The position numbers and the translations under genes are program-made. 64,000 bases of DNA from a virus: IMG/VR virus record IMGVR_UViG_3300018080_000002, positions 64,001 to 128,000 of that record; one strand, written 5' to 3'. Positions within the stretch are counted from its first letter, which is position 1; every line of letters starts with the position of its first letter. The notes under the pieces were generated by a model that was not told the origin of the DNA, did no database searches, and was given only the letters and a program-made list of their open reading frames with translations. This document shows, piece by piece, positions 23,664 to 60,977 of the stretch.

Positions 23664-25046
23664 ATGTTCAAAAAGAAAATTAATTCATTGAAGGAAGATT
23701 TTCAGACGTTAGGACTTATTAGAGAGGAGACCAGAACGTCTGATGGTCAGGAGGATCTCACCGAAGCGAAGGTGGTGAAGAAAAAAACGGGTGCGAAAGC
23801 CAAGCAGGCTGCACGTAAAAGAAAGATCGAGTATCGTAAGAAAAAGTCAGAGATCAAGAGGAAAGCCAAAAAGTATCGCCAGAGTGCGAAGGGCAAAAAG
23901 ACTATCGCAAAGCATGAAAAGGTAGTCAAACGAATGGGTGGAACGAAAAAAGGAAAATACATTCGTACATCCAGCATTGAGAGAAATGCGAATATTATCG
24001 AAGAAATTTCAAGATTGAATAAAGCTCTGTTAGGGGAATCTAGGCCAGAGCTTTTTTCTGAGCAGGAGTTAAAAGAACTGCGTAAGTCTATTAAGAATAC
24101 TCATCATCTAGCGGCTGTCTTAGCTAAGAGATTGGCTGAGTACATTGAGCAATGCGGTGAAGATATCCCTCATGATATTCTTACAAAGCATTTCAAAGAG
24201 GCTGCTCCATCGATCAATCCGAAAGCACCAAGCCGAAAAAATCCAGGCATTAACCCTGACAAAGATTTAAGTAAAAATCGTGTAGGGGAAGATCAGCCAA
24301 CAGACATGGAAGATGAGCATGGCATCAGTGATCCTAAGTCTGAAGCGGAGAAAAATGTTCAGAAAGAAAACATGGATGGCGAAACTCCAGATGATTTAGA
24401 CGATGATGAAATGGATTACATCGGTGATGAGGATGCCGATGGTGACGTTGATGATCTCGATGATGTCGACAATGAGTATGATGAAGAAAACGATCAGGGT
24501 GAAGATGGAACAGATGGTCCTGATAATGATAGCGGTGATCCTGAGCATGATTACATCGGCGATGACGACAAAGACGGTTATCAGGATGATGTCGATGAGC
24601 CTAGTCATGTAGGCGAAGATGATGATGAGGATGATTTATCTCTTGATATTGATGGAGATGGAGATGCCGATTTAGACATAGACATCGATGATGACGACGA
24701 TGACCTGGGTGCTGTGGATGACGATGACGACGACGATTTTGACGATGATGATGTTTCTGATGATTTTGACGATGATGATGATGATGATGATGAGTATGAC
24801 GAGGATGTCATGCCTACAGTGAAGGATTTCTTGGAAGAGGTTCAGGATATCAGTGGGAAGTCAAGTAAGCTGCTTAGTAAGCTTGATGATAAGACGATTA
24901 GCCCAGGATTAGCCAAAGATGTTTTAACTTCATTGGTCAATTATCTTGGTGGTGCGATGGAGCTATATACAGATTTGAATAAGTATGCAGCCAAGCCAGA
25001 TTATGAAAACAAAAATCTGACTGGTATGCCATCCAAGGTAAAATAA
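23664..25046 (+). CDS. Prohead core-like protein (basic N-terminus, poly-Asp region)
   Basis: Between portal and protease; LTE site followed by a K/R-rich block; D-rich block. Confidence 0.65.
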   Translation: MFKKKINSLKEDFQTLGLIREETRTSDGQEDLTEAKVVKKKTGAKAKQAARKRKIEYRKKKSEIKRKAKKYRQSAKGKKTIAKHEKVVKRMGGTKKGKYIRTSSIERNANIIEEISRLNKALLGESRPELFSEQELKELRKSIKNTHHLAAVLAKRLAEYIEQCGEDIPHDILTKHFKEAAPSINPKAPSRKNPGINPDKDLSKNRVGEDQPTDMEDEHGISDPKSEAEKNVQKENMDGETPDDLDDDEMDYIGDEDADGDVDDLDDVDNEYDEENDQGEDGTDGPDNDSGDPEHDYIGDDDKDGYQDDVDEPSHVGEDDDEDDLSLDIDGDGDADLDIDIDDDDDDLGAVDDDDDDDFDDDDVSDDFDDDDDDDDEYDEDVMPTVKDFLEEVQDISGKSSKLLSKLDDKTISPGLAKDVLTSLVNYLGGAMELYTDLNKYAAKPDYENKNLTGMPSKVK

Positions 25047-25070
25047 TAGATTTTGTGTAGAGGTATTGAT

Positions 25071-26651
25071 ATGGCGAAAGAACTACTTCAGGATTCAGTG
25101 CCGTTTAAGCTCGTTTTGGAAGAGAGTGAGAATGGCAGATTGGTAGCTAAAGGTCAGTTTGGTGCCGTTGATATCCCTACTGCTAATAAAAGAATGTATC
25201 CCCGCAGAATCATAGAGCGTGAATTATCCCGTCTAATGAAGGATGCAAAGGAACGCCGATTATATGGCGAGCTAGACCATCCTGGAGACGGGAAAACCAA
25301 ATTATCTCGCTCCAGTCATTTGATTACCAATCTTTCTTTGCAGGAGGATGGATCAGTTGTCGGTATGGCTGAAATCCTTAGTACCAGGAATGGGAAGGAG
25401 CTACAGGCTATTAGAAATGATGGCGGTCAAGTGGGGATTAGTAGTAGAGGATTTGGTTCGGTTAAAACCAACAATGAAGGTATCGATGTTGTTCAGGATG
25501 ACTTTACTCTCATGACATATGATTTCGTTGCAGATCCCGCTGCTGGCGGTAGCTACCCTGAATTTTCAAATGCTAATAGTGAGGATAGCGAAATGGCGAA
25601 AAAGAAATCTGATGAGAATAAAGATGCGAAGGAAAAAGAGATCCTGACATCTGAGAAAAAACCTGACGAAACTAAGCCAAAGGTTGATGAGGCTGTAATA
25701 TCCAAAGAGCCGGAAGAGAAAGTTGAGCATGAAAAAGAGATTGCTACGCTAAAGGCTAGTTTCAAAAAACAATTGAGTGAAGCTATAAAAGACGTGACTG
25801 AGAAAGTCAGATCCGAGGTTCGTAGTGAACTCCTTTCTGATCCAAAGGTTGCAGGAGCGATGACAGCGATTGAGTCTGTTAAATCGACCTTAAGACCTTA
25901 TATATTAGAGGCGGATGTTAACAAAGAGCTGGAGGTTCGTGAGAGCCGCATTAATGATCTTACATCTCAGGTGGATTCAATTCTCGAAGAGAAAAAATCT
26001 CTTGAATCTAAAATCGAAGAGTTTACTTCAGCGACTAAGGAGCTTGGTTTTAAGTTATTCTTAGAACGAGCGGTTAAGGGTCATCAAGAGTATGACTCTA
26101 TTATTGAAAAAGTTGGTGATGTAAATAGCTTCGCATCCCTTGAGGCTCTAGGTCATAGGGTTAATTTGATTATCTCTGAATACGATGACGTTAAAGAGGT
26201 TGTCAAAGATATCAAGACTGAGAGTGATGGTAGGGTGAAAGCTCTTGAGGGCAAGGTGAAAACCCTTGAGGAACAATTAAGCAAATCTCTTGAGGTTAGC
26301 AGAAACTTTGGTGTTCAGGCTTATCTTAGAGAGCGAGTTGTCAATCATCCAAGAGCTAAAGAAATTCTTTCGGAAGCTAAATTTCAAAAGCTTGAATCGA
26401 AAGAAAATGTTGACGAGTTTATTGCGTCCTATCGAGTGGTCAAGCGTAATGTAAACGAAGATTACCGTTCACGCATTAGGCGGTTTGTCAACAAAGACTC
26501 CTTAGTGGAAGATAGCATTAAGGGGACAAGGGTAGTTGATAGGAAGCAAAAGATAGAGGAGACCTCAGTAAATGAGGCTACTAATCCGCTATCAGGCGTT
26601 CCTGGCGTGACATTGGAAGATGTCGAGAGACTATCTGGAGTACGTAAATAG
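25071..26651 (+). CDS. Prohead protease (gp21-like) fused to scaffold-like coiled coil
   Basis: NKRMYP, GELDHP, SSHLI, GISSRGFGS, YDFVADP. Confidence 0.92.
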   Translation: MAKELLQDSVPFKLVLEESENGRLVAKGQFGAVDIPTANKRMYPRRIIERELSRLMKDAKERRLYGELDHPGDGKTKLSRSSHLITNLSLQEDGSVVGMAEILSTRNGKELQAIRNDGGQVGISSRGFGSVKTNNEGIDVVQDDFTLMTYDFVADPAAGGSYPEFSNANSEDSEMAKKKSDENKDAKEKEILTSEKKPDETKPKVDEAVISKEPEEKVEHEKEIATLKASFKKQLSEAIKDVTEKVRSEVRSELLSDPKVAGAMTAIESVKSTLRPYILEADVNKELEVRESRINDLTSQVDSILEEKKSLESKIEEFTSATKELGFKLFLERAVKGHQEYDSIIEKVGDVNSFASLEALGHRVNLIISEYDDVKEVVKDIKTESDGRVKALEGKVKTLEEQLSKSLEVSRNFGVQAYLRERVVNHPRAKEILSEAKFQKLESKENVDEFIASYRVVKRNVNEDYRSRIRRFVNKDSLVEDSIKGTRVVDRKQKIEETSVNEATNPLSGVPGVTLEDVERLSGVRK

Positions 26652-26720: not shown

Positions 26721-28178
26721 ATGGACGAAATGAGAAAAATGCTTACCGAGCAGCAGAATAAAGCTTCGGAAAGTTATGTTGGTCAGTTACTCGAAAAGTG
26801 GAACCCGCTCCTAAAAGGTGTCAGGTCTGATTACACCAGGGGAACGATGGCTGTTCTTTTTGAGAACCAAGCAAACTATTTAAAAGATTTAACCGAAGAA
26901 ACTCGTACAACCAATGTTGGTGAGTATCTTAAGTATGTATTTCCGATTCTTCGTCGCGTATGGCCGAACCTTATTGCAAACGAAATCGTTTCAGTTCAGC
27001 CCATGACAGCTCCTATTGGCGGTATCTTTTACTTTGAAGTAAAGTATGCCAATACCAAAGGGACCGTGACTGCTGGTGATAATTTCATCCAGAATTTCAA
27101 CCGATATTACAGTTCCGAAACTATCGATAAGGAAGTTATCGGTACGGCTACGGGATCTGGTGCCAGTTTTACCTCCACTCTGGACTATACGCCAATCAGA
27201 AATGGCTCAGTCCACAGTGATGCCTTGTTAACCGTTTGGACAACCGCATCTGGTGTTGATACCCAAGTTGGTGTCGATGACGGATCTGCTGGTGGTCTTA
27301 TCACTGAGTATGCAAGCTCTGGTGTTAGCGGTACGGTCAATTACACGACTGGCGTTATCGAAGTTACTTTCCCAAGTAATCCCGACGCGGATACATCGAT
27401 TTGGGTTAAGTATGACTATGATATGGAATGCAATGAGACTATTCCTCAAGCCAATCTCGATATCGAATTGGTCGAAATTCGAGCCAGAACTCGTAAGATG
27501 AAGGCTCTTTGGTGCTCCGAAGCTGCCGACGATCTTAAAGCGTTTCATGGAATCGATGCTGAAGCGGAATTGGTTGCTGCTCTTGCAGCCGAGATTTCTC
27601 TTGAAATTGACCGTGAGATGATCATGGATCTCTACAATGGCGCGACTGGTGGAACCGAAACTTGGGATTATGCTGGTGCCGCTGCTGGTGTTAGTGAGAT
27701 TGATTGGATCAGAACAATCGTTACGGTCTTAAGCCGACTATCCAACAAAATCTACAAGCAATCGTTACGTGGAGCTGCTAACTTCATCGTTACATCTCCT
27801 GACGTTGCTTCGGTTTTTGAGCAATTGGGTACTCATGGTGATTTCCGATCTATTTTTGCTCCTGCCAATGCAGAGACATTTGTAGCTCCTGAGTCGCCAC
27901 AGACCTTCGGTGTTCAGAAAATTGGTACGCTCCATCAGAAATGGATCGTTTACAAAGATCCATATTTCCCAAGCAACAAAATCCTCCTTGGATACAAAGG
28001 CTCTAGTTTCTTAGATGCTGGCTTTGTTTGGGCACCGTATGTACCGCTACAAATGACTGCTACTTTCTTAGATCCGCAAGATTTCTCATTCAGAAAAGGG
28101 ATGAGAACACGCTATGCTAAGAAAATGGTCCGTAGCGAATTTTACGGAGTTGTTACCGTAAATAATCTGCCTGCTTAA
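26721..28178 (+). CDS. Major capsid protein (T4 gp23-like)
   Basis: LFENQ, ILRRVWP.LIA.EIVSVQPM, RKMKA.W, EISLEIDRE, APYVPL, GMRTRY. Confidence 0.96.
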   Translation: MDEMRKMLTEQQNKASESYVGQLLEKWNPLLKGVRSDYTRGTMAVLFENQANYLKDLTEETRTTNVGEYLKYVFPILRRVWPNLIANEIVSVQPMTAPIGGIFYFEVKYANTKGTVTAGDNFIQNFNRYYSSETIDKEVIGTATGSGASFTSTLDYTPIRNGSVHSDALLTVWTTASGVDTQVGVDDGSAGGLITEYASSGVSGTVNYTTGVIEVTFPSNPDADTSIWVKYDYDMECNETIPQANLDIELVEIRARTRKMKALWCSEAADDLKAFHGIDAEAELVAALAAEISLEIDREMIMDLYNGATGGTETWDYAGAAAGVSEIDWIRTIVTVLSRLSNKIYKQSLRGAANFIVTSPDVASVFEQLGTHGDFRSIFAPANAETFVAPESPQTFGVQKIGTLHQKWIVYKDPYFPSNKILLGYKGSSFLDAGFVWAPYVPLQMTATFLDPQDFSFRKGMRTRYAKKMVRSEFYGVVTVNNLPA

Positions 28179-39008: not shown

Positions 39009-39848
39009 ATGCGAAAAGAATTTAAAAAAGAAATGGCAAGAATAGAGTCTGTTTTAGGTCGAGATACTGGCGAAAGAGATTCTATTGAGGAATATTCTGA
39101 ACCTTGGATGAATAAAAAAGTTAAGAGTCAAAAGACTGGTCGAATGGTTAAGATCGGATCATTAGAGCCAGCAGAACGAGCAAAATATCGACCAAAATCA
39201 GAGCAAAAACCAGCTCATCATCATGCTGCTGAAGCCTTGAGGAAGTCGGGACATCACAAGTTGGCAGATAAGGTTATGAGAGATCCAAAGTCTCATGCAA
39301 AAATAGCAGATAAAATGGAAGATATAAATAATCATGGTATTGCTGCTATGTTAAGGGCTGATGATGATACTGATGTTGAGGTTTTAGCCAAGGGTGAGCA
39401 CGATCATCATGAGTTTGATATGAGAGGTAAGCCTGAGAAATATGGTCATGAAAGAGATGATGCCTTGAGGGCAAAATATGAAGCTACTAATCCAGATAAG
39501 AGGATGGGTGACGGGGACGAATTTGATAAATGGCAAGCTCCAGGCCATTTGTCTGCTTTGAGATATCTTCATAAAAACAATCTACATCATACTGATACCT
39601 ATAAGCGTTTGGCTGATAAGGTCAATAAGCATAAGGATAAGTATAAGAAACTTCATGACGAGCATCTGAAGGGCTATAAAGACAATCATAAACAAGCCAA
39701 GGCAGAGTTGAAAGAGACTCAGAAAAGATTCAAAGACAAGTATGATAGGAAATATACGATGGGTGATCATAAGAGCTATTTGCATAGTATTAAAAGCACT
39801 CATGACACACAGAAAGATCTTGGTAGGGTTCTTGGTTTAGATAAATAG
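39009..39848 (+). CDS. His/Lys-rich leader-bearing protein
   Basis: MRKEFKKEMARIESVL; KTGRMV motif. Confidence 0.75.
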   Translation: MRKEFKKEMARIESVLGRDTGERDSIEEYSEPWMNKKVKSQKTGRMVKIGSLEPAERAKYRPKSEQKPAHHHAAEALRKSGHHKLADKVMRDPKSHAKIADKMEDINNHGIAAMLRADDDTDVEVLAKGEHDHHEFDMRGKPEKYGHERDDALRAKYEATNPDKRMGDGDEFDKWQAPGHLSALRYLHKNNLHHTDTYKRLADKVNKHKDKYKKLHDEHLKGYKDNHKQAKAELKETQKRFKDKYDRKYTMGDHKSYLHSIKSTHDTQKDLGRVLGLDK

Positions 39849-39858
39849 GAGATTTCAA

Positions 39859-40161
39859 ATGAGACAAGAATATATTGATGAGATGAAAAAGATCGAATCT
39901 GTTCTTTCTGAGGTTACTTTTAGTGGCGGTGGTTCTGATGATGCAGCTAAGGCATTTAAGATCCTGGGTACTAGGCCAAAATCCTCGGTAACGTCAATTG
40001 GTATAGTTGCTTATGGTACTGGCTTGAGTGAAATTGATGCGGTTTTGTTGAAAAAGCTTTTAAAGATCAAAACATTTACGGGTGTATCATTCAATCCTCA
40101 ATCTAAATTAGAAATCATGTTTGATTTAGGCGATGATTTTGAGGATGAGGATGAGGAATAG
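39859..40161 (+). CDS. Leader-bearing protein
   Basis: MRQEYIDEMKKIESVLSE. Confidence 0.75.
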   Translation: MRQEYIDEMKKIESVLSEVTFSGGGSDDAAKAFKILGTRPKSSVTSIGIVAYGTGLSEIDAVLLKKLLKIKTFTGVSFNPQSKLEIMFDLGDDFEDEDEE

Positions 40162-50800: not shown

Positions 50801-50888
50801 TCTGTGGTCTTTTACCGATTGTAACGGAGATTTAATTATGCTACTCTTTAACCAAGTAAATTTTGTACTTACGTTATGGAGTAGCCGT

Positions 50889-51857
50889 ATGAACAATAAG
50901 TATTTTTTTGACGAGTCCGAATTGGAAAAAATGGTTGAGGGATATAATTCTGGTATGTCTCCTGGTGAGATAGGTAAGGCTTTTGGTGTGTCTAGGCAAG
51001 TAATACATCATTGGTTGAAAAAACGTGGTGTTGAGATCAAGCCTAGATCCCCGTATGGAGTTCTTACGACCAAGAAAGATGTGTCTCAATGGAAGAGATG
51101 GTATCTGGATGATGGTATGAGTGTACGACAGATAGCTAAGAAAGCTGGAGTTGTTAGCTCTACTGTTGTCAAGCATTTGAACAAAGCTGGTATTCAGATG
51201 AGGACAATTTCTGAGGGTAAAACCAAGGTTACTGATGATGATCGAAAAAAGATCATTGATGATTATGAGCTTGGTTTGAACATGGAGGATTGTGCTAGGA
51301 ATGTTGGTTTTTCGATGGATACTGTCAAAAGAGTTTTGTATGAGTCTGGTATTGAGACGAAACGGGGTCGTATGATCAAGTTTAGACGCAAAGAGCAGCA
51401 GGAAAAGATTCGTGATCTTTATAACAAAGGTTGGAGTCTTTCTGCTCTTGAGCGGGAATTAGATACCAGTAGGGATAGCATCAAAGCTGTTTTGAGGATT
51501 TATGGGATTTCGATAAAATCCTATGGAGAGCTGAATGGTTTTGATTTTGAGGATCGGAAAGGCAGAAAATACTTCATGAGGAGTGGTTGGGAGATGTCTT
51601 ATGCGAGATATCTCGATAAACTAGGTCTCGATTGGGATTACGAATTAGAGTCCTTTGATATTGGGGAAGGTCGAAAATATACGCCTGATTTTTGGGTGTA
51701 TAAGAAAGATGGTTCATTAGGTTACATAGTAGAAATCAAAGGGTGGTACACCGAGAAAGCTAAGAGACGAGTGAAACTTTTCAAAGAAAATTTTCCTAAG
51801 TTAAATTTTAAGCTTTTGCAGGAGAAAAATTTGCAAGTTCTAGGTGTTCTGACTTAA
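50889..51857 (+). CDS. Free-standing homing endonuclease-like protein (tandem HTH plus PD-(D/E)XK)
   Basis: Four HTH repeats; RSGWE, YTPDF, VEIKG. Confidence 0.8.
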   Translation: MNNKYFFDESELEKMVEGYNSGMSPGEIGKAFGVSRQVIHHWLKKRGVEIKPRSPYGVLTTKKDVSQWKRWYLDDGMSVRQIAKKAGVVSSTVVKHLNKAGIQMRTISEGKTKVTDDDRKKIIDDYELGLNMEDCARNVGFSMDTVKRVLYESGIETKRGRMIKFRRKEQQEKIRDLYNKGWSLSALERELDTSRDSIKAVLRIYGISIKSYGELNGFDFEDRKGRKYFMRSGWEMSYARYLDKLGLDWDYELESFDIGEGRKYTPDFWVYKKDGSLGYIVEIKGWYTEKAKRRVKLFKENFPKLNFKLLQEKNLQVLGVLT

Positions 51858-51872
51858 GGAGGGTTATTAAAA

Positions 51873-52355
51873 ATGGCTAGAGCACAATCAAGTGATTATT
51901 ATCACGTCATGAAATTTCATGTTGTTGATAATCAAGATAGGCTTAATAGGTTAGCTGGTTTTACCAGCGTGACGGTTCCCGAATACACTCTTGAGGCTGT
52001 AGAGTACAAAGAGGGTATTTGGACGTATCGAAGAAAATATCCTGGGGATGTGACTGTTAGTGATATCACTCTGACGAGGGGTGTTGCTCGACAGGCGACC
52101 TATTTCTATGACTGGATAAAAGAGGCCATAGAGGGTAATCCGTACAGGGTTGACTTTGTTATTTATCAGTATCACAGAGAGGATGTTCAAGGCATGACAT
52201 CTTATCTTGATGCAACGCCATCGAGACGGATTGAATGTTTTGAAGCTTTTCCGATCAGGGTTAAGCCTGGAGCGGATTTTGATTCTCAGACTGGCGATGT
52301 CAGTGTTGAGGAGATGGATCTGGCAATTGAGCGGTTTAACATTGTAGCTGAGTAA
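51873..52355 (+). CDS. Tail tube protein (gp19-like)
   Basis: AGF.SV..PE...EYKEG...KYPG...ITL.RGV...FP. Confidence 0.9.
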   Translation: MARAQSSDYYHVMKFHVVDNQDRLNRLAGFTSVTVPEYTLEAVEYKEGIWTYRRKYPGDVTVSDITLTRGVARQATYFYDWIKEAIEGNPYRVDFVIYQYHREDVQGMTSYLDATPSRRIECFEAFPIRVKPGADFDSQTGDVSVEEMDLAIERFNIVAE

Positions 52356-52366
52356 TTGGAAAAGCT

Positions 52367-52915
52367 ATGGCTAGAGATCAGATTACTGACTTTCTGTTGT
52401 CTAATCGGTTTCATTTACTGGATGTATCTTTGACGATACCTCCAGTATTGATTCCTATATGGGGTTTTACGAGTATCAGTGCTCCAGAGATGACTGTTTC
52501 TTATCGAGAGATAAAAGAGGGTAACTACGAGTTTCCCCGAAAGGTTGTCGAGCGAGCGTCTGTATCTGTTCTAACCCTAGAGAACGGAAGTCAGATCTTC
52601 AATTCCGGTTTTTGGGACTGGATTAGTAAGATGCCGGAAGGTAATTACGAGAAAAAAGATTTATTGTTGATGCACCTGACTGGTATTAACCCGACAGATT
52701 CAGATAGTGTTGGGATAGATATTGGTGGTTTTGGTGTGGCTACAGGGGAATTTGCATTTAGGGTTCCAGGTAAGGCATGGCTGTTAAAAAATTGTGCAGC
52801 GGCTAGGTACAAGGCGGGTTCAGACTTTAGTTCTATGGGTGGTTCAGAGGTTAGCATCCAGCAATTAGATTTAGAGTATGAGGAGTTTCTTGAGTTTAAC
52901 GTAGGTATTGGTTGA
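52367..52915 (+). CDS. Second tail tube-like protein
   Basis: Paralogue: GFTSISAPE...IKEGN...LDLEYE. Confidence 0.8.
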   Translation: MARDQITDFLLSNRFHLLDVSLTIPPVLIPIWGFTSISAPEMTVSYREIKEGNYEFPRKVVERASVSVLTLENGSQIFNSGFWDWISKMPEGNYEKKDLLLMHLTGINPTDSDSVGIDIGGFGVATGEFAFRVPGKAWLLKNCAAARYKAGSDFSSMGGSEVSIQQLDLEYEEFLEFNVGIG

Positions 52916-52923
52916 GGTGTATT

Positions 52924-53382
52924 ATGAGAAACGAAAGCGATTTCGCATCTAAGACAAAATCGATGGATAATGTTCTTACATTTGCGAAGGTGATGTCCAA
53001 GAGTTATAAACAATTGACCGAGGAAGAGTTTGATACGGTCGATGAGCAGTTAGAAAAAGTCAAGATAGCATTCGAGTCGGAGCTGTCTTTATTCATATTT
53101 GAGCTATTAAAAGATTATTCGCATAAGTTCAATTGGAGCTTTGCGTCTCCGAATAGCGAGTTATTTGGTCAAAGCTGGCAGTCTCTACAGGATAGATATC
53201 AGCTCATGGGTGATGCTGATAAAATCGATCTGTATAAAAAGATCGGCATGTATATGATCAAAGTATTTTTAGAGTTGTTTCCGAATGCAGGAGAGCAGGC
53301 AGCGGTAGAGATGGCTATGGTCTTTAAGGATCTTATGGTCGAAAGGCTGAGGGAAAAATCTGTTCAAGCAAGGAAAGTATAA
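52924..53382 (+). CDS. Hypothetical protein
   Basis: GAGG SD before ATG 52924. Confidence 0.7.
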   Translation: MRNESDFASKTKSMDNVLTFAKVMSKSYKQLTEEEFDTVDEQLEKVKIAFESELSLFIFELLKDYSHKFNWSFASPNSELFGQSWQSLQDRYQLMGDADKIDLYKKIGMYMIKVFLELFPNAGEQAAVEMAMVFKDLMVERLREKSVQARKV

Positions 53383-53651
53383 TGAATCTTAAAAAACTAA
53401 ATCGAACCCTCGAAGATATTGAGATGATTTTGAATGAGAATGCGTATATGACTAAGGTTCATGATGAATATGTAAAATTAAATAAGAAGATTCATGAGCA
53501 TCTTATTAGGCAAGGCAAATTAGACCGTCAGTTGGACAAGATCAAGAAATTAGCAAAAAAATATGGGATATTTGAGTTATACATAAATGGTCAGACAATA
53601 CAGATTCAAGAGATAAAAATAGAGGATATTTTTAAGAATATGGGGCATTAG
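53382..53651 (+). CDS. MNLKKLN-leader cassette 1
   Basis: MNLKKLNRTLEDIEMILNE. Confidence 0.8.
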   Translation: MNLKKLNRTLEDIEMILNENAYMTKVHDEYVKLNKKIHEHLIRQGKLDRQLDKIKKLAKKYGIFELYINGQTIQIQEIKIEDIFKNMGH

Positions 53652-53655
53652 TGAT

Positions 53656-53919
53656 ATGAATCTCAAAAAGCTTAATGAACAGATGGAAGAGAGCATTTCG
53701 ATATTAGAGGATAAGACCGAGGAGATGAAAAAAAAGTTGGCTGTTAGGTACGGCAAACTTCAGATGAAGGTCAATAGACTTACTGATATGGAATGGAAAT
53801 GTGGCGAGGAATTGGAAAAGATAAAGAAAATAGCTGAAAGATATAAGATAAGTGAGATTGAAGTTGATGGAGGGACTATTGATTTATCTGATGTTTATCT
53901 AGGTGATATGAAAGCTTAA
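53656..53919 (+). CDS. MNLKKLN-leader cassette 2
   Basis: MNLKKLNEQMEESISILE. Confidence 0.8.
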   Translation: MNLKKLNEQMEESISILEDKTEEMKKKLAVRYGKLQMKVNRLTDMEWKCGEELEKIKKIAERYKISEIEVDGGTIDLSDVYLGDMKA

Positions 53920-53929
53920 GGTGGTAACA

Positions 53930-54661
53930 ATGGATCTCAAAAAACTAAATCGAACCCTCGAAGAGAGCATTCGGATTTTAGAGGAAGATAAGGTTCATAC
54001 CATAATGTTAGAGGCTAAGTCTAAGGTGAATGAGTCGATTATACCGAATATCCAGAAATGGGTTGATGCTGAACCAAGAAATACCATTGGTGATATCTCG
54101 TTTGAGATGGTCGAGGGTCATATTATTATCCCTAAAGATATCGTTACTCAGGAAGTGGTTGATCGGTATACGTATGAAGATAAGTGGGAAGTTGGTGAAG
54201 AGATCAGAGAATGGTTTTGGATGAGCTATGAGGAAAAGGGTAGTAAAGATATCCCTAAAGGTCACTGGGTTGCTTTAATGTTTGATGCTAGTATTATGGG
54301 AAAACCAGCGAAAGATATCAAGACTGCTTTGAATAATTTTATCAAAGAGGAGCGGGATTGGTTCAAGAGTATAGGTGTTAAAGTAAAAACAAAGGTTAAG
54401 CTCACAAAAGCAACTGGTTCAGAGGCAGAACATACAAATGATAGTATTGGTTGGGAATATTTATACACGGAATTTGATTTGACTGATAGTCATATGAGCC
54501 TTTTAGGCAAGATAAAAGATTCTGACGAGTCTTATAAGCCGGATAGCTATGATACGAAGTATTATATCCCCAAGATGGAAAAAAATGGCTTAGTGGTTTC
54601 TCAAGGTGGTGGTTATGTGATTACACCGAAAGGCGAAAAACTTTTGGCTAAGGGTTGGTAA
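53930..54661 (+). CDS. MNLKKLN-leader cassette 3 (C-terminal winged-helix-like segment)
   Basis: MDLKKLNRTLEESIRILEE; GLV...YVITPKG. Confidence 0.8.
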   Translation: MDLKKLNRTLEESIRILEEDKVHTIMLEAKSKVNESIIPNIQKWVDAEPRNTIGDISFEMVEGHIIIPKDIVTQEVVDRYTYEDKWEVGEEIREWFWMSYEEKGSKDIPKGHWVALMFDASIMGKPAKDIKTALNNFIKEERDWFKSIGVKVKTKVKLTKATGSEAEHTNDSIGWEYLYTEFDLTDSHMSLLGKIKDSDESYKPDSYDTKYYIPKMEKNGLVVSQGGGYVITPKGEKLLAKGW

Positions 54662-55047
54662 TGGATCTCAAAAAACTCAACAAAGTTCTCAGAGAAAGTA
54701 TTTCTATTTTACGAACAGAGTCCGATAAGTTTCGAGATCTTCCGATATATGGTGATGCGATTCCAGCGGGAAGCACCTTAATTAAAAAGAAAAGGGCTAA
54801 AAAGGATGCCATTTTTAAGCCTGTATTAATTAAGCAAGATGCTTATAGGACAAATAAAACCATATGGGTAAGAGCTATGGGTGTGTATGAAGGCGGGAAG
54901 GTTGTCAGGAGTTTTGAATATACCAGGAGTGGTAGAGTACAACTGTCGCTATGGTTAAAATACACAGACGACCCTGTGGTTGAAGATAAAATAACAAAAT
55001 ACAGGAAAGGGACTATTAACGATTTGCCAGCATTGATTGTTCGATGA
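54661..55047 (+). CDS. MNLKKLN-leader cassette 4
   Basis: MDLKKLNKVLRESISILRTE. Confidence 0.8.
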   Translation: MDLKKLNKVLRESISILRTESDKFRDLPIYGDAIPAGSTLIKKKRAKKDAIFKPVLIKQDAYRTNKTIWVRAMGVYEGGKVVRSFEYTRSGRVQLSLWLKYTDDPVVEDKITKYRKGTINDLPALIVR

Positions 55048-55060
55048 CATGGGGGTAACG

Positions 55061-55405
55061 ATGAATCTTAAAAAATTAAACCAAGCTCTAGGCGAGAGTA
55101 TTAAGATATTGGAAGGAAAATCGGATAAATATTTAGCTATTAAACGTGGTTCAGGTACAAATAGATACTATTTAACTACTGCAAAAAAATATCGTGGTCG
55201 TTGGATGATTGGTGGTGATGTTGATACAACTAATGTAACTATTCTCAAAAAGGATCAAACGGACGATCGATGGAAAGCTTATACCCTTAAAGGTAATCGT
55301 ATGGTTTTTTCTGATTATGTGGATGAGGATGATTTAAGGAAATATGAGAAAGGTCTGGATGATAAAGATTTGGAAGATGTTGGTTTGAAGGACTTGTATA
55401 AGTGA
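55061..55405 (+). CDS. MNLKKLN-leader cassette 5
   Basis: MNLKKLNQALGESIKILE. Confidence 0.8.
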   Translation: MNLKKLNQALGESIKILEGKSDKYLAIKRGSGTNRYYLTTAKKYRGRWMIGGDVDTTNVTILKKDQTDDRWKAYTLKGNRMVFSDYVDEDDLRKYEKGLDDKDLEDVGLKDLYK

Positions 55406-55411
55406 AAAAAT

Positions 55412-55684
55412 ATGGGAAAAGATATGGACAATAAGACAATCAATGAAACTGTATCTAAGGTACTTTTTAAGGATAAACCCCTTAATGAGTCTTTTCATAT
55501 GAAAGACAGTGTTCTGGATGGTTTTACGTTTGAGGATTTGATTACGACCATTCAGACTAGCGAAGCAAAAATTGATGAAAAAACTGTTCTTAGGATTCTT
55601 GAAAAGGTCATCAAGCTTGATGTTGCTGGTGCTAGGTCTGTTGTTAAAAAGGAAATGAAGAATATTTTAGATGCTTTGCAATAG
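55412..55684 (+). CDS. Leader-bearing protein (different leader)
   Basis: ..VSKVLFKDKPLNE|S, similar to the 32363 leader. Confidence 0.7.
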   Translation: MGKDMDNKTINETVSKVLFKDKPLNESFHMKDSVLDGFTFEDLITTIQTSEAKIDEKTVLRILEKVIKLDVAGARSVVKKEMKNILDALQ

Positions 55685-55693
55685 AGGTATGTT

Positions 55694-56272
55694 ATGAATC
55701 TCAAAAAACTGAATGAAACCTTGGAAGAAAGTATAGAGATACTGTCTGATAATAAGGTTAGAAATCCAAAGACAGGCAGGATGGTGGGTCAGAGATATCT
55801 CAGGAAAGTGATTGCTAAAGAGCATGAGACGATTGGTAATCTTGGTTTTGAGAAACTGGAGACGTTCGTAAAGCATAAAAAGAAAAGAATGAAAAAGATA
55901 AGTGAGGCTGAGGACTTTCGTACTTTGAAGCGTGGAAAAGCAGAGAAATTAATGCGAACTATTCTTGACAAACACACGAAAGGTGTTTTTAAGGATGAAC
56001 ATTGGGCACCTTGGCACAAGATCTTGGATGATTTCGTTGATCATAAGGTTGATTATACGATCGATAAGACTGAGTATTACAAACATCCGAGTACCAAGGA
56101 TGAGATGCCTGATGGTAAGAGGTGGATGCTTACTGTTTATCATGGTGAAAAAGGCGGCTGGAAAGTTAATATAACAGCCTCATTTGGTCCATCTAAGCCG
56201 GGTGATACGGATAAGTACGACATGATTTATACGATAAATTGGTTAGGACGTTTAAGAAAGCCGAAAGATTAG
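55694..56272 (+). CDS. MNLKKLN-leader cassette 6
   Basis: MNLKKLNETLEESIEIL; NPKTGRMV. Confidence 0.8.
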   Translation: MNLKKLNETLEESIEILSDNKVRNPKTGRMVGQRYLRKVIAKEHETIGNLGFEKLETFVKHKKKRMKKISEAEDFRTLKRGKAEKLMRTILDKHTKGVFKDEHWAPWHKILDDFVDHKVDYTIDKTEYYKHPSTKDEMPDGKRWMLTVYHGEKGGWKVNITASFGPSKPGDTDKYDMIYTINWLGRLRKPKD

Positions 56273-56281
56273 AGGTGAAGT

Positions 56282-56620
56282 ATGAATCTTAAAAAATTGA
56301 ATGAACAGCTTGAACGGAGTATTTCTCTCTTGGAGAATAAGGATTCTGTTGATGGAGAATATCTTGTCAAAGTAGAGAGACAACCGATTTATAGTGATTC
56401 AGCTAAACACGCAACGTATAAAGTGTCGCAGAAAAAACTAAAGGTTTCTGATGGTAGTGTTTTCTTAAATGGAAAATCATTTAGGTTGAGTTCGCCTTTT
56501 GATTGGTTGCAAAAGGCGTTAGAAAAAGGTTTTGATTCTTTGAAAGCTGATGAGCATATCGTTTTTACGACACAAAAATTAAAGTATGAGCTGGTCGATA
56601 TAATAAAGAAAATACGTTAG
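56282..56620 (+). CDS. MNLKKLN-leader cassette 7
   Basis: MNLKKLNEQLERSISLLE. Confidence 0.8.
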   Translation: MNLKKLNEQLERSISLLENKDSVDGEYLVKVERQPIYSDSAKHATYKVSQKKLKVSDGSVFLNGKSFRLSSPFDWLQKALEKGFDSLKADEHIVFTTQKLKYELVDIIKKIR

Positions 56621-56629
56621 AGGTGAAGT

Positions 56630-57103
56630 ATGGCCGTAAAAGACGAAATTGATATTGCCAATATGATCATGGCAAAACCAAAAATTAGAATGAATGCTGG
56701 AGAGAAACAGCCAGCTCAGTGCATAGGTGGAGCTAGTAAGACTGGTCCTAATAGCGAGATAGCTACAGGTCAGTTAATGGCCGAGGAAGTTAAAATGAGC
56801 GATTTAAGGCCACAAAGGAGAGCTAAACCCTCATTATCCAATGATCGGAAAAACGAGCTTAAAGAGGCAATGAGGAGGTCTCATCTACATAATACGAGAC
56901 AGGAGCCTATCACTGAGGATATGGGTTTTGAGGAATCTGTTGAGAGTTTATTTGAGGCTGTGAATAATATTGAGTTAGGGATCGAGGAAATTGGTTCACA
57001 AACTGGTCGAGTTGGTCGTAAGATGGTTGAGGAGTGGGATATGCTACTCAAGCGTCTGAAAAGGTTTGAGTTGTATTATGATCGAGCAATGTCAAAATTA
57101 TAA
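56630..57103 (+). CDS. Hypothetical protein
   Basis: Same 16-nt stop/SD/start linker as 56282. Confidence 0.7.
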   Translation: MAVKDEIDIANMIMAKPKIRMNAGEKQPAQCIGGASKTGPNSEIATGQLMAEEVKMSDLRPQRRAKPSLSNDRKNELKEAMRRSHLHNTRQEPITEDMGFEESVESLFEAVNNIELGIEEIGSQTGRVGRKMVEEWDMLLKRLKRFELYYDRAMSKL

Positions 57104-57115
57104 GGTGATTGTCGT

Positions 57116-57769
57116 ATGATAGAACAGTTGATTGAGCTGGAGGCTGCGAATAGATATCAGCCTTGGGTTGATCCTGGGTTAGATCCTGAATTTGTAAGGA
57201 TGAAAGATGCCGTTCAAGAGCATACCGTGCTTTGTATTTATCGTTTATATACAGCATATCAATTTCTAAAACATGCTTTACGAATGGTTCATGGCAACGT
57301 AGCTGATATTGGTGTTTATAAGGGTGGATCTGTCAGGCTTTTTGGAGAAATGGCGACCAAAGCTGGTCGAAAGACTTATGGCTTTGATACTTTTACTGGA
57401 GAACCGGAAACTGCTCCTTGGATAGATATTCATAAAGAGGGCGATTTTTCTGATGTTAATTTTGAAGATGTTCAAAAATTTGTGAAGAATTTTGATGTTG
57501 AGTTGTTTAAGGGGGTATTTCCTGAGACTGGGGACGTTATTAAAGACGATAGATTTTGTTTTGTTCATATAGATGTTGATTTGTATTTATCATGCCAGGA
57601 TTGTTTAGAGTTTTTTTGTCCGAGAATGTCTGATGGAGCGATTATTTTATTGGATGATTATGGCACCAAGTCATGTCCAGGTATCAAGCTTGCTACGGAT
57701 GAGTTTGTTTTTGACAAAGATAAAAGTTTGATATTTTTGCCGACAGGACAGGCGGTGATTATCTGTTAG
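57116..57769 (+). CDS. TylF/MycF/NovP-family sugar O-methyltransferase
   Basis: GVYKGGS, FDTFTG.P, KG.FPET, FVHIDVDLY, LLDDY. Confidence 0.9.
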   Translation: MIEQLIELEAANRYQPWVDPGLDPEFVRMKDAVQEHTVLCIYRLYTAYQFLKHALRMVHGNVADIGVYKGGSVRLFGEMATKAGRKTYGFDTFTGEPETAPWIDIHKEGDFSDVNFEDVQKFVKNFDVELFKGVFPETGDVIKDDRFCFVHIDVDLYLSCQDCLEFFCPRMSDGAIILLDDYGTKSCPGIKLATDEFVFDKDKSLIFLPTGQAVIIC

Positions 57770-57779
57770 GAGAATAACG

Positions 57780-58148
57780 ATGGATCTACGTAGTCTGAAT
57801 AAAAAGCTGGAGGAATCTATTTCTCTTTTAAATGAGGGAAAGACTGCTGATGGAACAGTCACCATTGAAGGATGGTATGACAAGGACGATAACGAGTGGA
57901 ATCTGGAGATTGAATATACGGTTGCTGACTATGAGTATGGTGCTGATAGAGATAGCAGGCGGGGTATGAGGCGAGTAGACCTTGAGGATTGGAGCGTTTC
58001 TCATGCTGAGTTAGTTTATCCGACCAAAAAAGATCTGGAGCCTGGGGAAAAATTGCCTAAATTCAATGAAAGAAAGCTCTCTCGCAAAGAATTGAAGGAT
58101 CTCGGAGATCAGATTGAGGATTTGGCTAGGGAAGATTATCATGGATAA
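57780..58148 (+). CDS. MNLKKLN-leader cassette 8
   Basis: MDLRSLNKKLEESISLLNE. Confidence 0.8.
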   Translation: MDLRSLNKKLEESISLLNEGKTADGTVTIEGWYDKDDNEWNLEIEYTVADYEYGADRDSRRGMRRVDLEDWSVSHAELVYPTKKDLEPGEKLPKFNERKLSRKELKDLGDQIEDLAREDYHG

Positions 58149-58410: not shown

Positions 58411-58641
58411 ATGGGTAAACCGATTGTAGGCAAAGTTCGTTTGAATTTGTTTATGCAGGCAAAGTTGTATATCGAATTGTGTCATATCGCGGAGACTGAT
58501 GATCGAAGCATGGCTGACGTTATCAGGGAAGCGTGTAGAGATTACGTGGTTCGATACAAAAGACGTGGAACGCATAAGTATTTTAATCAAGGAGTAAGCG
58601 ATGAGCGAAGTGACGAAAGAGGTAGGGACAACGACAGTTGA
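58411..58641 (+). CDS. Ribbon-helix-helix (CopG-like) regulator
   Basis: RLNLFM..LY.EL..IA....RSMADVIREA...Y. Confidence 0.75.
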   Translation: MGKPIVGKVRLNLFMQAKLYIELCHIAETDDRSMADVIREACRDYVVRYKRRGTHKYFNQGVSDERSDERGRDNDS

Positions 58642-59401
58642 TCAGATTGTTTCAGGGGTAAAGAGTGATACTAAATCCAGCCATACCTGTATAGAGCTGC
58701 CGACAGGTTATATCGATCAGGATGGAAATCTTCAAAAAGCGGTGGATATCAGACCGTACACAGGTGAGGAGGAGGATATATTAGCCTCTCAGAAAATGCC
58801 TATGTATCGAAGATTGGGCAAGTTGCTGGAGAATTGTGTAACCAGGATTGGTGATATTGATGATCCGAAGAGATTGAAAAGCATTATTCGTCAGTTAGTT
58901 TTTTCTGACAGATTGTTTTTGATCGTACAAGTAAGGGCTGCAACAAACGGAAATATCTATTCTTTAGATGTAAAATGCCCTGAAGAGGATTGTGGCTTGA
59001 ACAGTATGCAGCATATTGATCTAGCTGATATCAAATGGGTTGGATTGCAAGATCCCATGAAGCGTCAATACTCGTTTAAGCTGCCTGGTAGTGGTGTTGA
59101 TGTGACATGGAACGTTATGGATGGAATAAGAGAGGAGAGGATTCATCAGCATTCCTTGGATCGAGATTTATTATCTGTGGGAATTTTGGCTAGGTTGAAC
59201 GATCTCGATACTCGCCGAGTTACGATGGCGATGGTTAAAAAGATGACGCCTCCACAGAGACGAGCATTAAGGAAAGAGTTTGAAAAGGCTGAAGGGACTT
59301 TAGATGATCAGGTAACGTTTGAGTGTAAGCATTGCGGTCATGAATGGACGGATTCTGTTGATTACGCGCAACCAAGTTTTTTCTTCCCTACGGACGAGTA
59401 G
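58601..59401 (+). CDS. Baseplate hub/tail assembly chaperone (gp26/gp51-like)
   Basis: ELPTG, EEEDIL, DR.FL..VR, CP..C, LPGSG, CKHCG, FFFP end. Confidence 0.8.
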   Translation: MSEVTKEVGTTTVDQIVSGVKSDTKSSHTCIELPTGYIDQDGNLQKAVDIRPYTGEEEDILASQKMPMYRRLGKLLENCVTRIGDIDDPKRLKSIIRQLVFSDRLFLIVQVRAATNGNIYSLDVKCPEEDCGLNSMQHIDLADIKWVGLQDPMKRQYSFKLPGSGVDVTWNVMDGIREERIHQHSLDRDLLSVGILARLNDLDTRRVTMAMVKKMTPPQRRALRKEFEKAEGTLDDQVTFECKHCGHEWTDSVDYAQPSFFFPTDE

Positions 59402-59559: not shown

Positions 59560-60195
59560 ATGGAAGATCGTAAGCCGTGGAGATTGACCTGGGATGAAGA
59601 GGGATATACTTATGCTTATTTTGTTAAAGGGAAAGACAGTGATAGGCATGAGGAGTTATTTAAGGAAGTTGTTAACCGACATATAGATAACAAGGCAGAT
59701 TGTCTGCAAGTGGGTATCCCTCATGGTATTGATCGAGAATTTGGTGGAGAGGGTAAGAAATTTGGCAAAAATTTCATAGCCATTGATTTATATGATCAGA
59801 ATCCCGAAATAGATTACAATGTGGATTTGTCCGATACTCCTTTCGATAGTGATTGTTTTGATTTTATAGTTTGTCCGGCAATATTAGAACATGTTAAAGA
59901 TCCGTTTAAATGCGTAGATGAAATATATAGAATCCTTAAAAATGGCGGTGAAGTATGGTGTGAGGTTCCATTTTTTCAACCCTTTCATCCATTTAAGGGC
60001 TATAATGAAGATGATATGGGATTAGCATTAGATGATCAACAGATCGAATTTACAGGCGATGAGGATCATGGTGGAGATTACTGGAGGTTTACGCCTCAAG
60101 GTGTAAGGCAATTATTTAGGCGATTTGAATTGATCGAGATGTTCCTATGTAGAGAGGGTGGAATTTGTTTCTATGGCCGTAAACCGGAGGCATGA
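59560..60195 (+). CDS. Class I SAM-dependent methyltransferase
   Basis: FDFIVC.AILEHVKDP..EIYRILK.GG, DYWRFT. Confidence 0.85.
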   Translation: MEDRKPWRLTWDEEGYTYAYFVKGKDSDRHEELFKEVVNRHIDNKADCLQVGIPHGIDREFGGEGKKFGKNFIAIDLYDQNPEIDYNVDLSDTPFDSDCFDFIVCPAILEHVKDPFKCVDEIYRILKNGGEVWCEVPFFQPFHPFKGYNEDDMGLALDDQQIEFTGDEDHGGDYWRFTPQGVRQLFRRFELIEMFLCREGGICFYGRKPEA

Positions 60196-60977
60196 ATTTG
60201 AAAACCGATATTACAGGGACTCTTTTTGTTAAAGATAATTTTAGATTAGATTACTGTTTAGAGGAATCGGTCAGGAGTTTACTTCCTTTTTGCGATGAAA
60301 TAATTGTTTTGGATTGCGGGAGTCGGGATGGCACTCAGGAATTGATCAGAAATCTTGCCAATGAGAATACTAAAATTAAAGCTGTTTATGACCATCCTTG
60401 GGATGTTGCGTATGGGTATCATAGGCTAAGGATTATTGCAGATGATGCTCGTAGAATGGTTAAGACCAATTGGCATTTCATGTTACAGGCTGATGAGGTT
60501 GTTCATGAAGATAGTGTTCCATTTATTTTAGATGCTGTTAAATCGGGTTGTGGTGATAGGTTTTTCTGTCGTCGTTATAATTTATTTGGAGGCATGGATC
60601 ACTATATAAGATTTGGAAGTTCGTATCAGCCGTGTAATGATCAAGTAGTACGGTTAGGTAAACAGGTTTTTGCAGTTGTTGGAGATGCCGAGAATATTGA
60701 TTCGGATCATGCTGTTGATGATTATTTGGATAAGATAAATATCGTGCATTACGGTTTTGTTAGAACGGGGTCTATTTTGTTGGATAAGGCTATCGAGATG
60801 CAGGAATGGTTTGGATTAGGGGTTGATTCTCGGTTGTTGGCTATGAAGAAAAGAGGAGAAATTTATGAATCTGAGGTCTTTATATCCAAAGATTATTTAG
60901 ATGCGATACCATTTAGCCATCCGAAAGTTGCTCAAAAATGGGTTGATAGTAGGCGTAATGATTTAACAAGGAAGTGA
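60192..60977 (+). CDS. Glycosyltransferase family 2
   Basis: SLLPFCDEIIVLDCGSRDGT, LQADE, HYG. Confidence 0.85.
   Translation: MNLKTDITGTLFVKDNFRLDYCLEESVRSLLPFCDEIIVLDCGSRDGTQELIRNLANENTKIKAVYDHPWDVAYGYHRLRIIADDARRMVKTNWHFMLQADEVVHEDSVPFILDAVKSGCGDRFFCRRYNLFGGMDHYIRFGSSYQPCNDQVVRLGKQVFAVVGDAENIDSDHAVDDYLDKINIVHYGFVRTGSILLDKAIEMQEWFGLGVDSRLLAMKKRGEIYESEVFISKDYLDAIPFSHPKVAQKWVDSRRNDLTRK

What the first reader, a model, noticed from the sequence alone, without database searches (positions are those of the whole stretch)
53382..58148. Tandem array of eight genes with one conserved leader (M[ND]LKKLNxxLEESIxILE) fused to different cargos: a putative capsid-loading cassette system
Seen: ORFs at 53382, 53656, 53930, 54661, 55061, 55694, 56282 and 57780 share an ~18-aa amphipathic leader that usually ends at or near an [IL]xE motif, then diverge (only cassettes 1 and 2 have related cargos). 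Similarity extends to DNA: AAAAAACTAAATCGAACCCTCGAAGA (26 nt) is identical in cassettes 1 and 3. The linker TTAGAGGTGAAGTATG occurs at 56269 and 56617, and ATAGAGGTATGTTATG precedes both 39009 and 55694. Known: T4 internal proteins use a short capsid-targeting sequence removed by gp21 after [IL]xE, and IPI is a variable anti-restriction locus. This phage has a gp21-like protease, and its MCP has LTE sites. Inference: the leader is a new capsid-targeting signal and a recombination handle for swapping small ejected effectors, possibly anti-defence proteins.
Basis: partly seen in the sequence, partly recalled or inferred. Interest (0 to 1): 0.9.

Follow-up and report, generated by a model that had tools for sequence, protein, structure and literature searches.

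The report
Shared leader on eight phage genes
Eight neighbouring small genes of an uncultured 157-kb T4-like phage begin with the same 18-20-residue helix and are otherwise mostly unrelated, which most likely marks them for loading into the phage head, as the known capsid-targeting tag of phage T4 internal proteins does; this has not been shown experimentally.

Summary
Eight same-strand ORFs (53382-58148) start with MNLKKLNxxLEESIxILE, and nothing else in the circular 157,357-bp genome does.

- **Selection acts on the peptide.** 40-50% of identical residues use different codons, so this is not an RNA or DNA element.
- **Cargos are mostly unrelated.** Only c1/c2 are clearly related; c4/c5 are marginal.
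- **The head module is T4-type.** It has a gp20-like portal, a Peptidase_S77 (gp21-like) protease with catalytic His and Ser fused to a scaffold-like tail, and a gp23-family capsid protein whose [LI]xE sites cluster in its propeptide.
- **Every leader has at least one [LI]xE site.** No position is shared by all eight.
- **The leader is portable.** The C-terminal domain of cassette 6 recurs in other phages behind a related leader (P0016), behind unrelated short N-termini, and behind a 2H-phosphoesterase-like domain.

Best reading (about 0.5): a new sequence family of T4-style capsid-targeting propeptides on ejected internal proteins. That is a new variant of a known kind.

No virion data exist. 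A docking helix for another partner is not excluded. Cargo functions remain unknown.

This scan has reported similar leader families on other phage DNA before.

The parts
53382..53651 (+). Cassette 1 (89 aa). Leader MNLKKLNRTLEDIEMILNE; basic cargo related to cassette 2.
53656..53919 (+). Cassette 2 (87 aa). Leader plus a cargo paralogous to cassette 1 (E 3e-10).
53930..54661 (+). Cassette 3 (243 aa). Leader plus an orphan cargo with a weak C-terminal winged-helix match (PF14947 at its cut-off; Sso10a-like below cut-off).
54661..55047 (+). Cassette 4 (128 aa). Leader plus a basic cargo (pI 10.0).
55061..55405 (+). Cassette 5 (114 aa). Leader plus a cargo with marginal similarity to cassette 4.
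55694..56272 (+). Cassette 6 (192 aa). Leader, then a 55-aa basic linker, then a conserved ~115-aa alpha/beta domain (KGVFKDEHW...KGGW...ASFGPS...YDxIY) that is also found in other phages behind other N-termini.
56282..56620 (+). Cassette 7 (112 aa). Leader plus cargo; the gene is bracketed by the exact 16-nt repeat TTAGAGGTGAAGTATG.
57780..58148 (+). Cassette 8 (122 aa). The most diverged leader (MDLRSLNKKLEESISLLNE) plus an acidic cargo. The cargo resembles ~100-aa phage proteins in the ESM Atlas, which are about the length of the cargo without the leader (lead only).
55412..55684 (+). Leader-less 90-aa ORF interspersed in the array.
56630..57103 (+). Leader-less 157-aa ORF interspersed in the array.
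57116..57769 (+). TylF-like SAM-dependent O-methyltransferase embedded in the array.
25053..26651 (+). Prohead protease and presumed processing enzyme. It has a Peptidase_S77 domain (residues 30-168) with His and Ser conserved against T4 gp21, plus a ~360-aa coiled-coil C-terminal extension rich in [LI]xE that looks like a scaffold.
26721..28178 (+). Gp23-family major capsid protein. Four of its six [LI]xE motifs, including LTE at 57-59, lie in the N-terminal 60 residues, ahead of the conserved core.
23664..25046 (+). Highly acidic 460-aa protein between portal and protease; a candidate prohead core or scaffold component.
51873..52915 (+). Two gp19-like tail tube genes immediately upstream. 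Together with the conserved 156-aa gene at 52912-53382 they form the left border of the variable region.
58601..59401 (+). PF12322 T4_baseplate-family gene, the conserved right border of the variable region. The tape-measure-like ORF starts at 60981.

Best explanation
The 18-20-residue leader is a capsid-targeting propeptide that works like the CTS of phage T4 internal proteins.

Proposed mechanism (all steps inferred):
1. The eight proteins are made late, together with the tail genes.
2. Their N-terminal amphipathic helix binds the prohead core. The likely partners are the scaffold-like C-terminal part of the protease and/or the acidic 460-aa protein.
3. The gp23-like shell assembles around this core.
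4. The gp21-like S77 protease cuts after a Glu of one or more [LI]xE sites in the leader and frees the cargo inside the head.
5. The cargos, mostly small and basic, with one carrying a winged-helix-like end, leave with the DNA at the next infection.

Shown here: the shared leader, peptide-level selection on it, its portability, and the T4-type head machinery. Inferred: binding to the core, cleavage, packaging, ejection, and any anti-defence role.
For: (1) Eight N-terminal leaders stand on mostly unrelated cargos, and nowhere else in the genome.
(2) Conservation is at the amino-acid level. 40-50% of identical residues use different codons, and Ser13 is AGC/AGT in six cassettes (Ile in cassette 1) and TCT in cassette 8.
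(3) The leader is an amphipathic helix: hydrophobic moment 0.41-0.68, in the top 0.3-4% of shuffles. AF2 models it as a separate low-confidence helix ahead of a confidently folded cargo domain.
(4) The head module is T4-type: Portal_T4, Peptidase_S77 with catalytic His and Ser aligned to T4 gp21 (5JBL), and a Gp23 capsid protein.
(5) [LI]xE occurs in all eight leaders, against 17.6% of other genes at residues 6-22 and 2% of composition-matched shuffles. The motif is also concentrated in the capsid propeptide and in the protease's scaffold-like tail (0.028 per residue against 0.0115 for the proteome).
(6) Portability: the cassette-6 domain recurs with a related leader (P0016, 24.7 bits at the same positions), with other short N-termini, and fused to a 2H-phosphoesterase-like domain. 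The cassette-8 cargo resembles phage proteins of ~100 aa, about the cargo's length without the leader.
(7) All genes from the sheath to the PF12322 gene lie on one strand, and those from the sheath through cassette 8 are separated by at most 37 nt (13 nt or less from the first tube gene on), so late co-expression is likely.
(8) Precedent: T4 internal-protein propeptides are 10-19 residues long, target the core and are cut at L/I-x-E. Multiple sites per propeptide are usual in related phages. T-even internal proteins share only the CTS (PMC9026906, PMC3012670).
Against: - There are no virion proteomics and no cleavage data.
- No single [LI]xE position is shared by all eight leaders. Cassettes 4 and 6 lack the distal site.
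- The leader's composition alone makes the motif likely, at about 60% per leader.
- The leader has no sequence similarity to the T4 CTS.
- The array lies in the tail module, between the tube and tape-measure genes, not beside the head genes.
- Three cargos are acidic or near neutral, unlike the basic T4 internal proteins.
- Related phage fragments carry no such leader family, so there is no comparative support beyond P0016.
Confidence: 0.5

Rival explanations
1. The helix is an uncleaved docking module. It plugs interchangeable small proteins onto another common partner: a tail, tape-measure or baseplate component, giving tail-associated or tail-lumen cargo, or an intracellular phage or host hub.
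For: The array sits between the tube and tape-measure genes, in a region that varies between related phages. Amphipathic helices are generic docking elements. Earlier scan notes describe shared N-terminal docking tags on virion proteins of other phages.
Against: No candidate receptor has been identified. The cargos look intracellular, being small and basic, and one has a winged-helix-like end. The tube lumen of a DNA phage is occupied by the tape measure (established knowledge). The T4-type protease and motif pattern fit a cleavable head tag better.
Confidence: 0.25
2. The genes are an ordinary tandem paralogue family from a hyperplastic accessory region. The N-terminal helix is the conserved functional core, for example all members binding one host target, and the rest diverges fast. 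No virion targeting is involved.
For: The arrangement is tandem. c1/c2 are clearly paralogous and c4/c5 marginally so. The genes are orphans typical of fast-evolving accessory genes.
Against: The cassette-6 domain exists independently of the leader and is fused to other modules elsewhere. Cargo lengths range from 67 to 223 aa and composition varies widely. Predicted late co-transcription with tail genes suits host take-over proteins poorly unless they are packaged (inference).
Confidence: 0.17
3. The leader is a recognition sequence for a modifying enzyme, analogous to RiPP leaders or shared enzyme tags. A candidate enzyme is the TylF-like methyltransferase inside the array, or the nearby methyltransferase and glycosyltransferase.
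For: A TylF-like methyltransferase lies between cassettes 7 and 8. A second methyltransferase and a GT2 glycosyltransferase follow the array. An earlier scan note found one phage leader linked to a radical-SAM enzyme.
Against: TylF-type enzymes methylate sugars, not peptides (established knowledge). No RRE, radical-SAM or peptide-modifying enzyme was seen. The cargos are folded domains rather than short core peptides.
Confidence: 0.05

Closest known systems
[quoted passage not shown]
   Same: A short N-terminal propeptide (10-19 aa in T4; 18-20 aa here) is shared by otherwise unrelated small proteins. The phage has a gp21-family S77 protease, a gp23 capsid protein and a gp20 portal. L/I-x-E motifs occur in the leader. 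The cargo set is variable and accessory (PMC9026906, PMC3012670).
   Different: There is no sequence similarity to MKTYQEFIAE. The helix is longer and there is no single fixed cleavage position. Eight genes sit in one tandem array inside the tail module. Some cargos are acidic. The protease is fused to a scaffold-like extension. Packaging and cleavage are untested.
Propeptide-bearing inner-body and ejection proteins of phiKZ-like giant phages (phiKZ, 201phi2-1, SPN3US)
   Same: Many head-internal proteins are processed after Glu by a gp21-related protease, with redundant sites in their propeptides (PMC9026906).
   Different: Those phages use S/A-x-E sites and paralogous protein families, without one short shared leader. 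This phage is 157 kb with a T4-type head module.
N-terminal packing signals of eCIS/PVC payloads
   Same: N-terminal address tags sit on diverse cargos encoded beside contractile-tail genes (from my own knowledge; not tested here).
   Different: PVC signals are ~50-aa disordered regions without a conserved sequence, and they load cargo into a DNA-free tube. Here the tag is an 18-aa conserved helix in a bona fide DNA phage with a tape measure.

Membership tests
T4-type CTS-bearing internal proteins | A short N-terminal propeptide shared by otherwise unrelated small proteins | tested here: met
   Eight leaders score 38-44 bits against the leader HMM. The cargos are unrelated except c1/c2.
T4-type CTS-bearing internal proteins | The phage encodes a gp21-family (Peptidase_S77) prohead protease with catalytic residues, plus a T4-type prohead (gp20, gp23) | tested here: met
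   PF03420 57 bits, PF07068 257 bits, PF07230 228 bits. His (GELDHP) and Ser (SSRGFGS) align to T4 gp21 in 5JBL.
T4-type CTS-bearing internal proteins | An L/I-x-E cleavage site at the end of the propeptide | tested here: inconclusive
   All eight leaders have at least one site, but at varying positions: 10-12 in five and 16-19 in six. Leader composition alone gives roughly 60% per leader.
T4-type CTS-bearing internal proteins | Sequence homology to the T4 CTS (MKTYQEFIAE) | tested here: not met
   Direct comparison of the leader consensus MNLKKLNxxLEESIxILE with the T4 CTS shows no alignable similarity beyond Met1 and acidic residues.
T4-type CTS-bearing internal proteins | Proteins present in the head, leader removed, and ejected with the DNA | not testable with these tools
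T4-type CTS-bearing internal proteins | Small basic mature proteins | tested here: inconclusive
   Five cargos have pI 8.7-10.0 and three have pI 4.6-6.2.
eCIS/PVC payloads with N-terminal packing signal | A ~50-aa disordered, non-conserved N-terminal signal, and a DNA-free particle with an open tube lumen | tested here: not met
   The leader is an 18-aa conserved amphipathic helix. The genome encodes a portal, a capsid protein and a 1251-aa tape-measure-like ORF.
RiPP-like leader recognised by a maturase | A linked peptide-modifying enzyme (RRE, radical-SAM or similar) and a short core peptide | tested here: inconclusive
   Only a TylF-like methyltransferase lies within the array. The cargos are 67-223 aa and at least one is a folded domain. 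No genome-wide search for maturases was made.

The most novel reading that the evidence does not exclude
The leader is not a head tag. It would be an address for a different virion compartment or assembly line encoded around it, for example loading small effectors onto the tape measure or tail lumen of a DNA phage. Alternatively it would be a general, sequence-readable loading tag whose cargo repertoire, including a domain that other phages fuse to a 2H phosphoesterase, forms a new set of injected counter-defence proteins.
Probability: 0.12. Interest if true: 0.75.

Novelty: new variant of a known kind. Interest (0 to 1): 0.45.

Why it matters
If the leader is a capsid-targeting tag, the injected protein cargo of an uncultured T4-like phage can be read directly from its sequence. 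It would also show that distant T4-like lineages have evolved their own unrelated targeting helices. Such a tag could serve as a second, orthogonal tag for packaging foreign proteins in phage heads. The eight cargos are orphan proteins and would be candidates for first-minute host take-over or counter-defence functions. That includes the conserved cassette-6 domain, which other phages fuse to a 2H-phosphoesterase-like module. The principle has been known from T4 since the 1990s, so the gain is in breadth rather than concept.

Tried and rejected
**RNA or DNA element, or recombination handle.** Rejected as the main constraint because synonymous differences are abundant. The 16-nt junction repeats are largely the common TAGAGGT stop-plus-RBS junction.

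**Searches for leader relatives**
- The word-indexed search of 5.8 billion proteins found only the phage's own eight, plus a one-residue variant of cassette 1 on a 3.9-kb contig. Only 8000 candidates were scored.
- The exhaustive HMM search of 1.84 billion representatives found only the phage's own eight plus long repetitive proteins.
- The IMG/VR peptide-pattern scan found nothing.
- Degenerate DNA-pattern scans of IMG/VR and of metagenome contigs gave only chance matches, none at an N-terminus in an array.
- The one true relative, P0016, was found only through its cargo. It scores 24.7 bits, below what a 20-aa profile can detect database-wide.

**Family, fold and homologue searches on the cargos**
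- PHROGs, Pfam and NCBIfam gave nothing except the weak winged-helix match in c3.
- tblastn of c4, c5, c7, c8 and P0017 against 50,697 phage records found no match.
- AF2 of c3 was unusable, with pLDDT 36.
- The fold search with the cassette-6 model gave a best Z of 6.6, within background.

**Other checks**
- The resemblance of the acidic protein's N-terminus and of a G001 gene (MKKFDLKKLIRESII...) to the leader is not supported by the HMM.
- T4 late-promoter and sigma-70 scans were uninformative.
- Related phage fragments G001-G003 have no leader-only families.

Full report
**What is there**

The window is bases 64001-128000 of a 157,357-bp contig with a terminal overlap, so it is a complete uncultured phage genome. 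Between 53382 and 58148, eight + strand ORFs of 87-243 aa begin with the same peptide. They start at 53382, 53656, 53930, 54661, 55061, 55694, 56282 and 57780. The consensus is MNLKKLNxxLEESISILE.

Each leader ATG has a Shine-Dalgarno-like motif 6-9 nt upstream. A profile of the first 22 residues scores the eight at 38-44 bits, and nothing else in six-frame translations of the genome exceeds 7 bits.

After about residue 20 comes a short polar stretch, and then similarity is lost. Among the cargos only c1/c2 are related (32% identity over 59 aa, E 3e-10), and c4/c5 are marginal (E 0.11).

Three leader-less genes are interspersed: a 90-aa ORF, a 157-aa ORF and a TylF-like methyltransferase.

The junction repeats are built around TAGAGGT, a stop-plus-RBS string found 30 times in the genome.

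**What is being conserved**

Leader DNA is only 47-75% identical between cassettes. In 40-50% of positions with the same amino acid, the codon differs. Leu uses six codons. Ser13 is AGC/AGT in six cassettes (Ile in cassette 1) and TCT in cassette 8.

Selection therefore acts on the peptide, not on an RNA structure or a recombination site.

The peptide is a strongly amphipathic helix, with hydrophobic moment 0.41-0.68, in the top 0.3-4% of shuffles. AlphaFold2 of cassette 6, using a five-sequence alignment, gives the following:
- a helix at residues 2-19 with low confidence
- a low-confidence linker
- a confident alpha/beta domain at residues ~75-190 (pLDDT 74-89)

So the leader is not part of the cargo fold.

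**Context**

The head module is T4-type:

| Gene | Coordinates | Evidence |
|---|---|---|
| Portal_T4 portal, interrupted by an intein | 19984-22932 | |
| Very acidic 460-aa protein | 23664-25046 | |
| Prohead protease: Peptidase_S77 domain (PF03420, 57 bits) plus ~360 aa of charged, coiled-coil sequence | 25053-26651 | |
| Gp23-family capsid protein (257 bits) | 26721-28178 | |

The protease aligns to T4 gp21 (5JBL), and the catalytic His and Ser contexts are kept. The start of the capsid propeptide aligns to that of T4 gp23.

[LI]xE, the T4 gp21 site (PMC9026906), shows this pattern:
- four of the six occurrences in the capsid protein lie in its first 60 residues, including LTE at 57-59
- it is 2.5-fold enriched in the protease's C-terminal extension, at 0.028 per residue against 0.0115 for the proteome

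This is what a T4-like maturation scheme predicts.

The array itself lies in the tail module. The order is:
1. sheath (49013-50800)
2. an HTH-nuclease gene
3. two gp19-like tube genes
4. a conserved 156-aa gene
5. the array
6. a PF12322 baseplate-family gene (58601-59401)
7. a methyltransferase
8. a GT2 glycosyltransferase
9. a 1251-aa tape-measure-like ORF starting at 60981

All are on one strand. Gaps from the sheath through cassette 8 are at most 37 nt, and 13 nt or less from the first tube gene on; beyond cassette 8 the gaps reach about 160 nt. This suggests late co-transcription, which is an inference.

In two related IMG/VR fragments the stretch between the tube genes and the PF12322 gene holds different genes. 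It spans about 1 kb in L002 and about 3 kb in L001, so this is a variable accessory slot.

**Distribution**

Leader-based searches found only the phage's own eight proteins:
- the word-indexed 5.8-billion-protein search, with only 8000 candidates scored
- the exhaustive HMM search of 1.84 billion representatives
- degenerate pattern scans of IMG/VR and of metagenome contigs

They also found a one-residue variant of cassette 1 on a 3.9-kb contig.

The cargo search for cassette 6 was more informative. Its C-terminal domain occurs in:
- P0016 (138 aa), which starts MFFKKLNEQLEKSIRLLEAED. This is the same leader (24.7 bits at identical positions), joined directly to the domain without the 55-aa linker.
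- P0019 and L118, behind other short N-termini. L118 lies in a T4-like fragment that has its own S77 protease.
- L133 and L134, also behind other short N-termini.
- P0017 and P0018, behind a ~190-aa domain with two H-x-S motifs and a weak 2'-5' RNA ligase (2H) match at E 0.04.

The cassette-8 cargo resembles ~100-aa phage proteins in the ESM Atlas, about the length of the cargo without the leader (TM 0.58-0.64). This is a lead only.

The leader is therefore a portable module, and it exists in at least one other phage. A 20-residue profile cannot detect diverged copies database-wide, so "unique to this phage" cannot be claimed.

**Interpretation**

The closest known system is the capsid targeting sequence of T4 internal proteins. 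According to the reviews PMC9026906 and PMC3012670:
- propeptides of 10-19 residues give affinity for the prohead core
- they are removed by gp21 at L/I-x-E
- they are the only thing that the diverse, often counter-defence, internal proteins of T-even phages share
- redundant sites within propeptides are documented for related giant phages

Every feature that sequence alone can test fits, with two reservations.

First, no [LI]xE position is common to all eight leaders. Residues 10-12 carry it in five and residues 16-19 in six, and leader composition alone makes a site likely. All eight having a site occurred in 2% of shuffles, and 17.6% of other genes have a site at residues 6-22.

Second, the leader has no sequence similarity to the T4 CTS. 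It would be an analogue within a homologous assembly system, not a homologue of the tag.

I therefore put the capsid-targeting reading at about 0.5. The rivals are:
- an uncleaved docking helix for another partner, including tail components, at about 0.25
- a plain diverging paralogue family at about 0.17
- an enzyme-recognition tag at about 0.05

**Cargo functions remain unknown**

- PHROGs, Pfam and NCBIfam give only a weak winged-helix or Sso10a-like C-terminus for cassette 3.
- The cassette-6 domain has no fold match above background, with a best Z of 6.6.
- Cultured phages have no homologues of c4, c5, c7, c8 or P0017.
- Five cargos are basic (pI 8.7-10.0) and three are acidic or near neutral.
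- An anti-defence role is possible by analogy with IPI, but nothing here tests it.

**Novelty**

The principle is established for T4 and anticipated for its relatives. This scan has already reported comparable leader families in other phages.

What is new here:
- a distinct, longer leader family
- an eight-gene tandem array in the tail module of a distant T4-like phage
- a cargo domain that is shuffled between leaders and an enzyme-like module

This makes it a new variant of a known kind, of moderate interest.

Noticed in passing
window 36142-36618, 36628-36900, 39009-39848, 39859-40161: A second N-terminal leader family (MR.[EQ][YF]..E[MV]..I...[LM]) sits on four otherwise unrelated genes. 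These genes flank a tubulin/TubZ-like gene (36897-38087) and an AAA ATPase (38102-38968). The 39009/39859 pair scores 44 in the N-terminal comparison. The gene at 39009 and cassette 6 share both the identical 16-nt upstream junction and a KTGRMV motif.
   Followed up: partly
window 19984-22932: The T4-type portal gene is interrupted by an intein with a LAGLIDADG homing-endonuclease domain (Pfam Intein_splicing, LAGLIDADG_3, Hom_end).
   Followed up: no
window 25053-26651: The S77 prohead protease is fused to a ~360-aa charged, coiled-coil extension rich in [LI]xE. It looks like a gp21-gp22 (protease-scaffold) fusion.
   Followed up: partly
window 50838-51857: A gene with tandem HTH domains and an endonuclease I/DUF1064-like C-terminus lies between the sheath and tube genes. 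It is probably a homing endonuclease.
   Followed up: no
window 57116-57769, 59560-60195, 60192-60977: A TylF-like O-methyltransferase, a second SAM methyltransferase and a GT2 glycosyltransferase are embedded in the tail module. They may be connected with virion glycosylation, which another first-stage note on this genome suggested.
   Followed up: no
P0017, P0018 (proteins from other metagenomic phages): The cassette-6 C-terminal domain is fused to a ~190-aa N-terminal domain with two H-x-S motifs (HVSVS, HISLA) and a weak 2H-phosphoesterase (2'-5' RNA ligase) match at E 0.04. This is a possible nucleotide-signal-degrading enzyme with an unknown partner domain.
   Followed up: partly
window 56269-56284 and 56617-56632: Cassette 7 is bracketed by an exact 16-nt direct repeat (TTAGAGGTGAAGTATG). 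This is a possible trace of insertion or duplication of a single cassette.
   Followed up: partly
G001 (record of L118) 23365-22601, minus strand: In another T4-like fragment, the gene between the tube gene and the PF12322 gene starts MKKFDLKKLIRESIIEVMKE. This looks like the leader by eye but is not detected by the leader HMM.
   Followed up: partly
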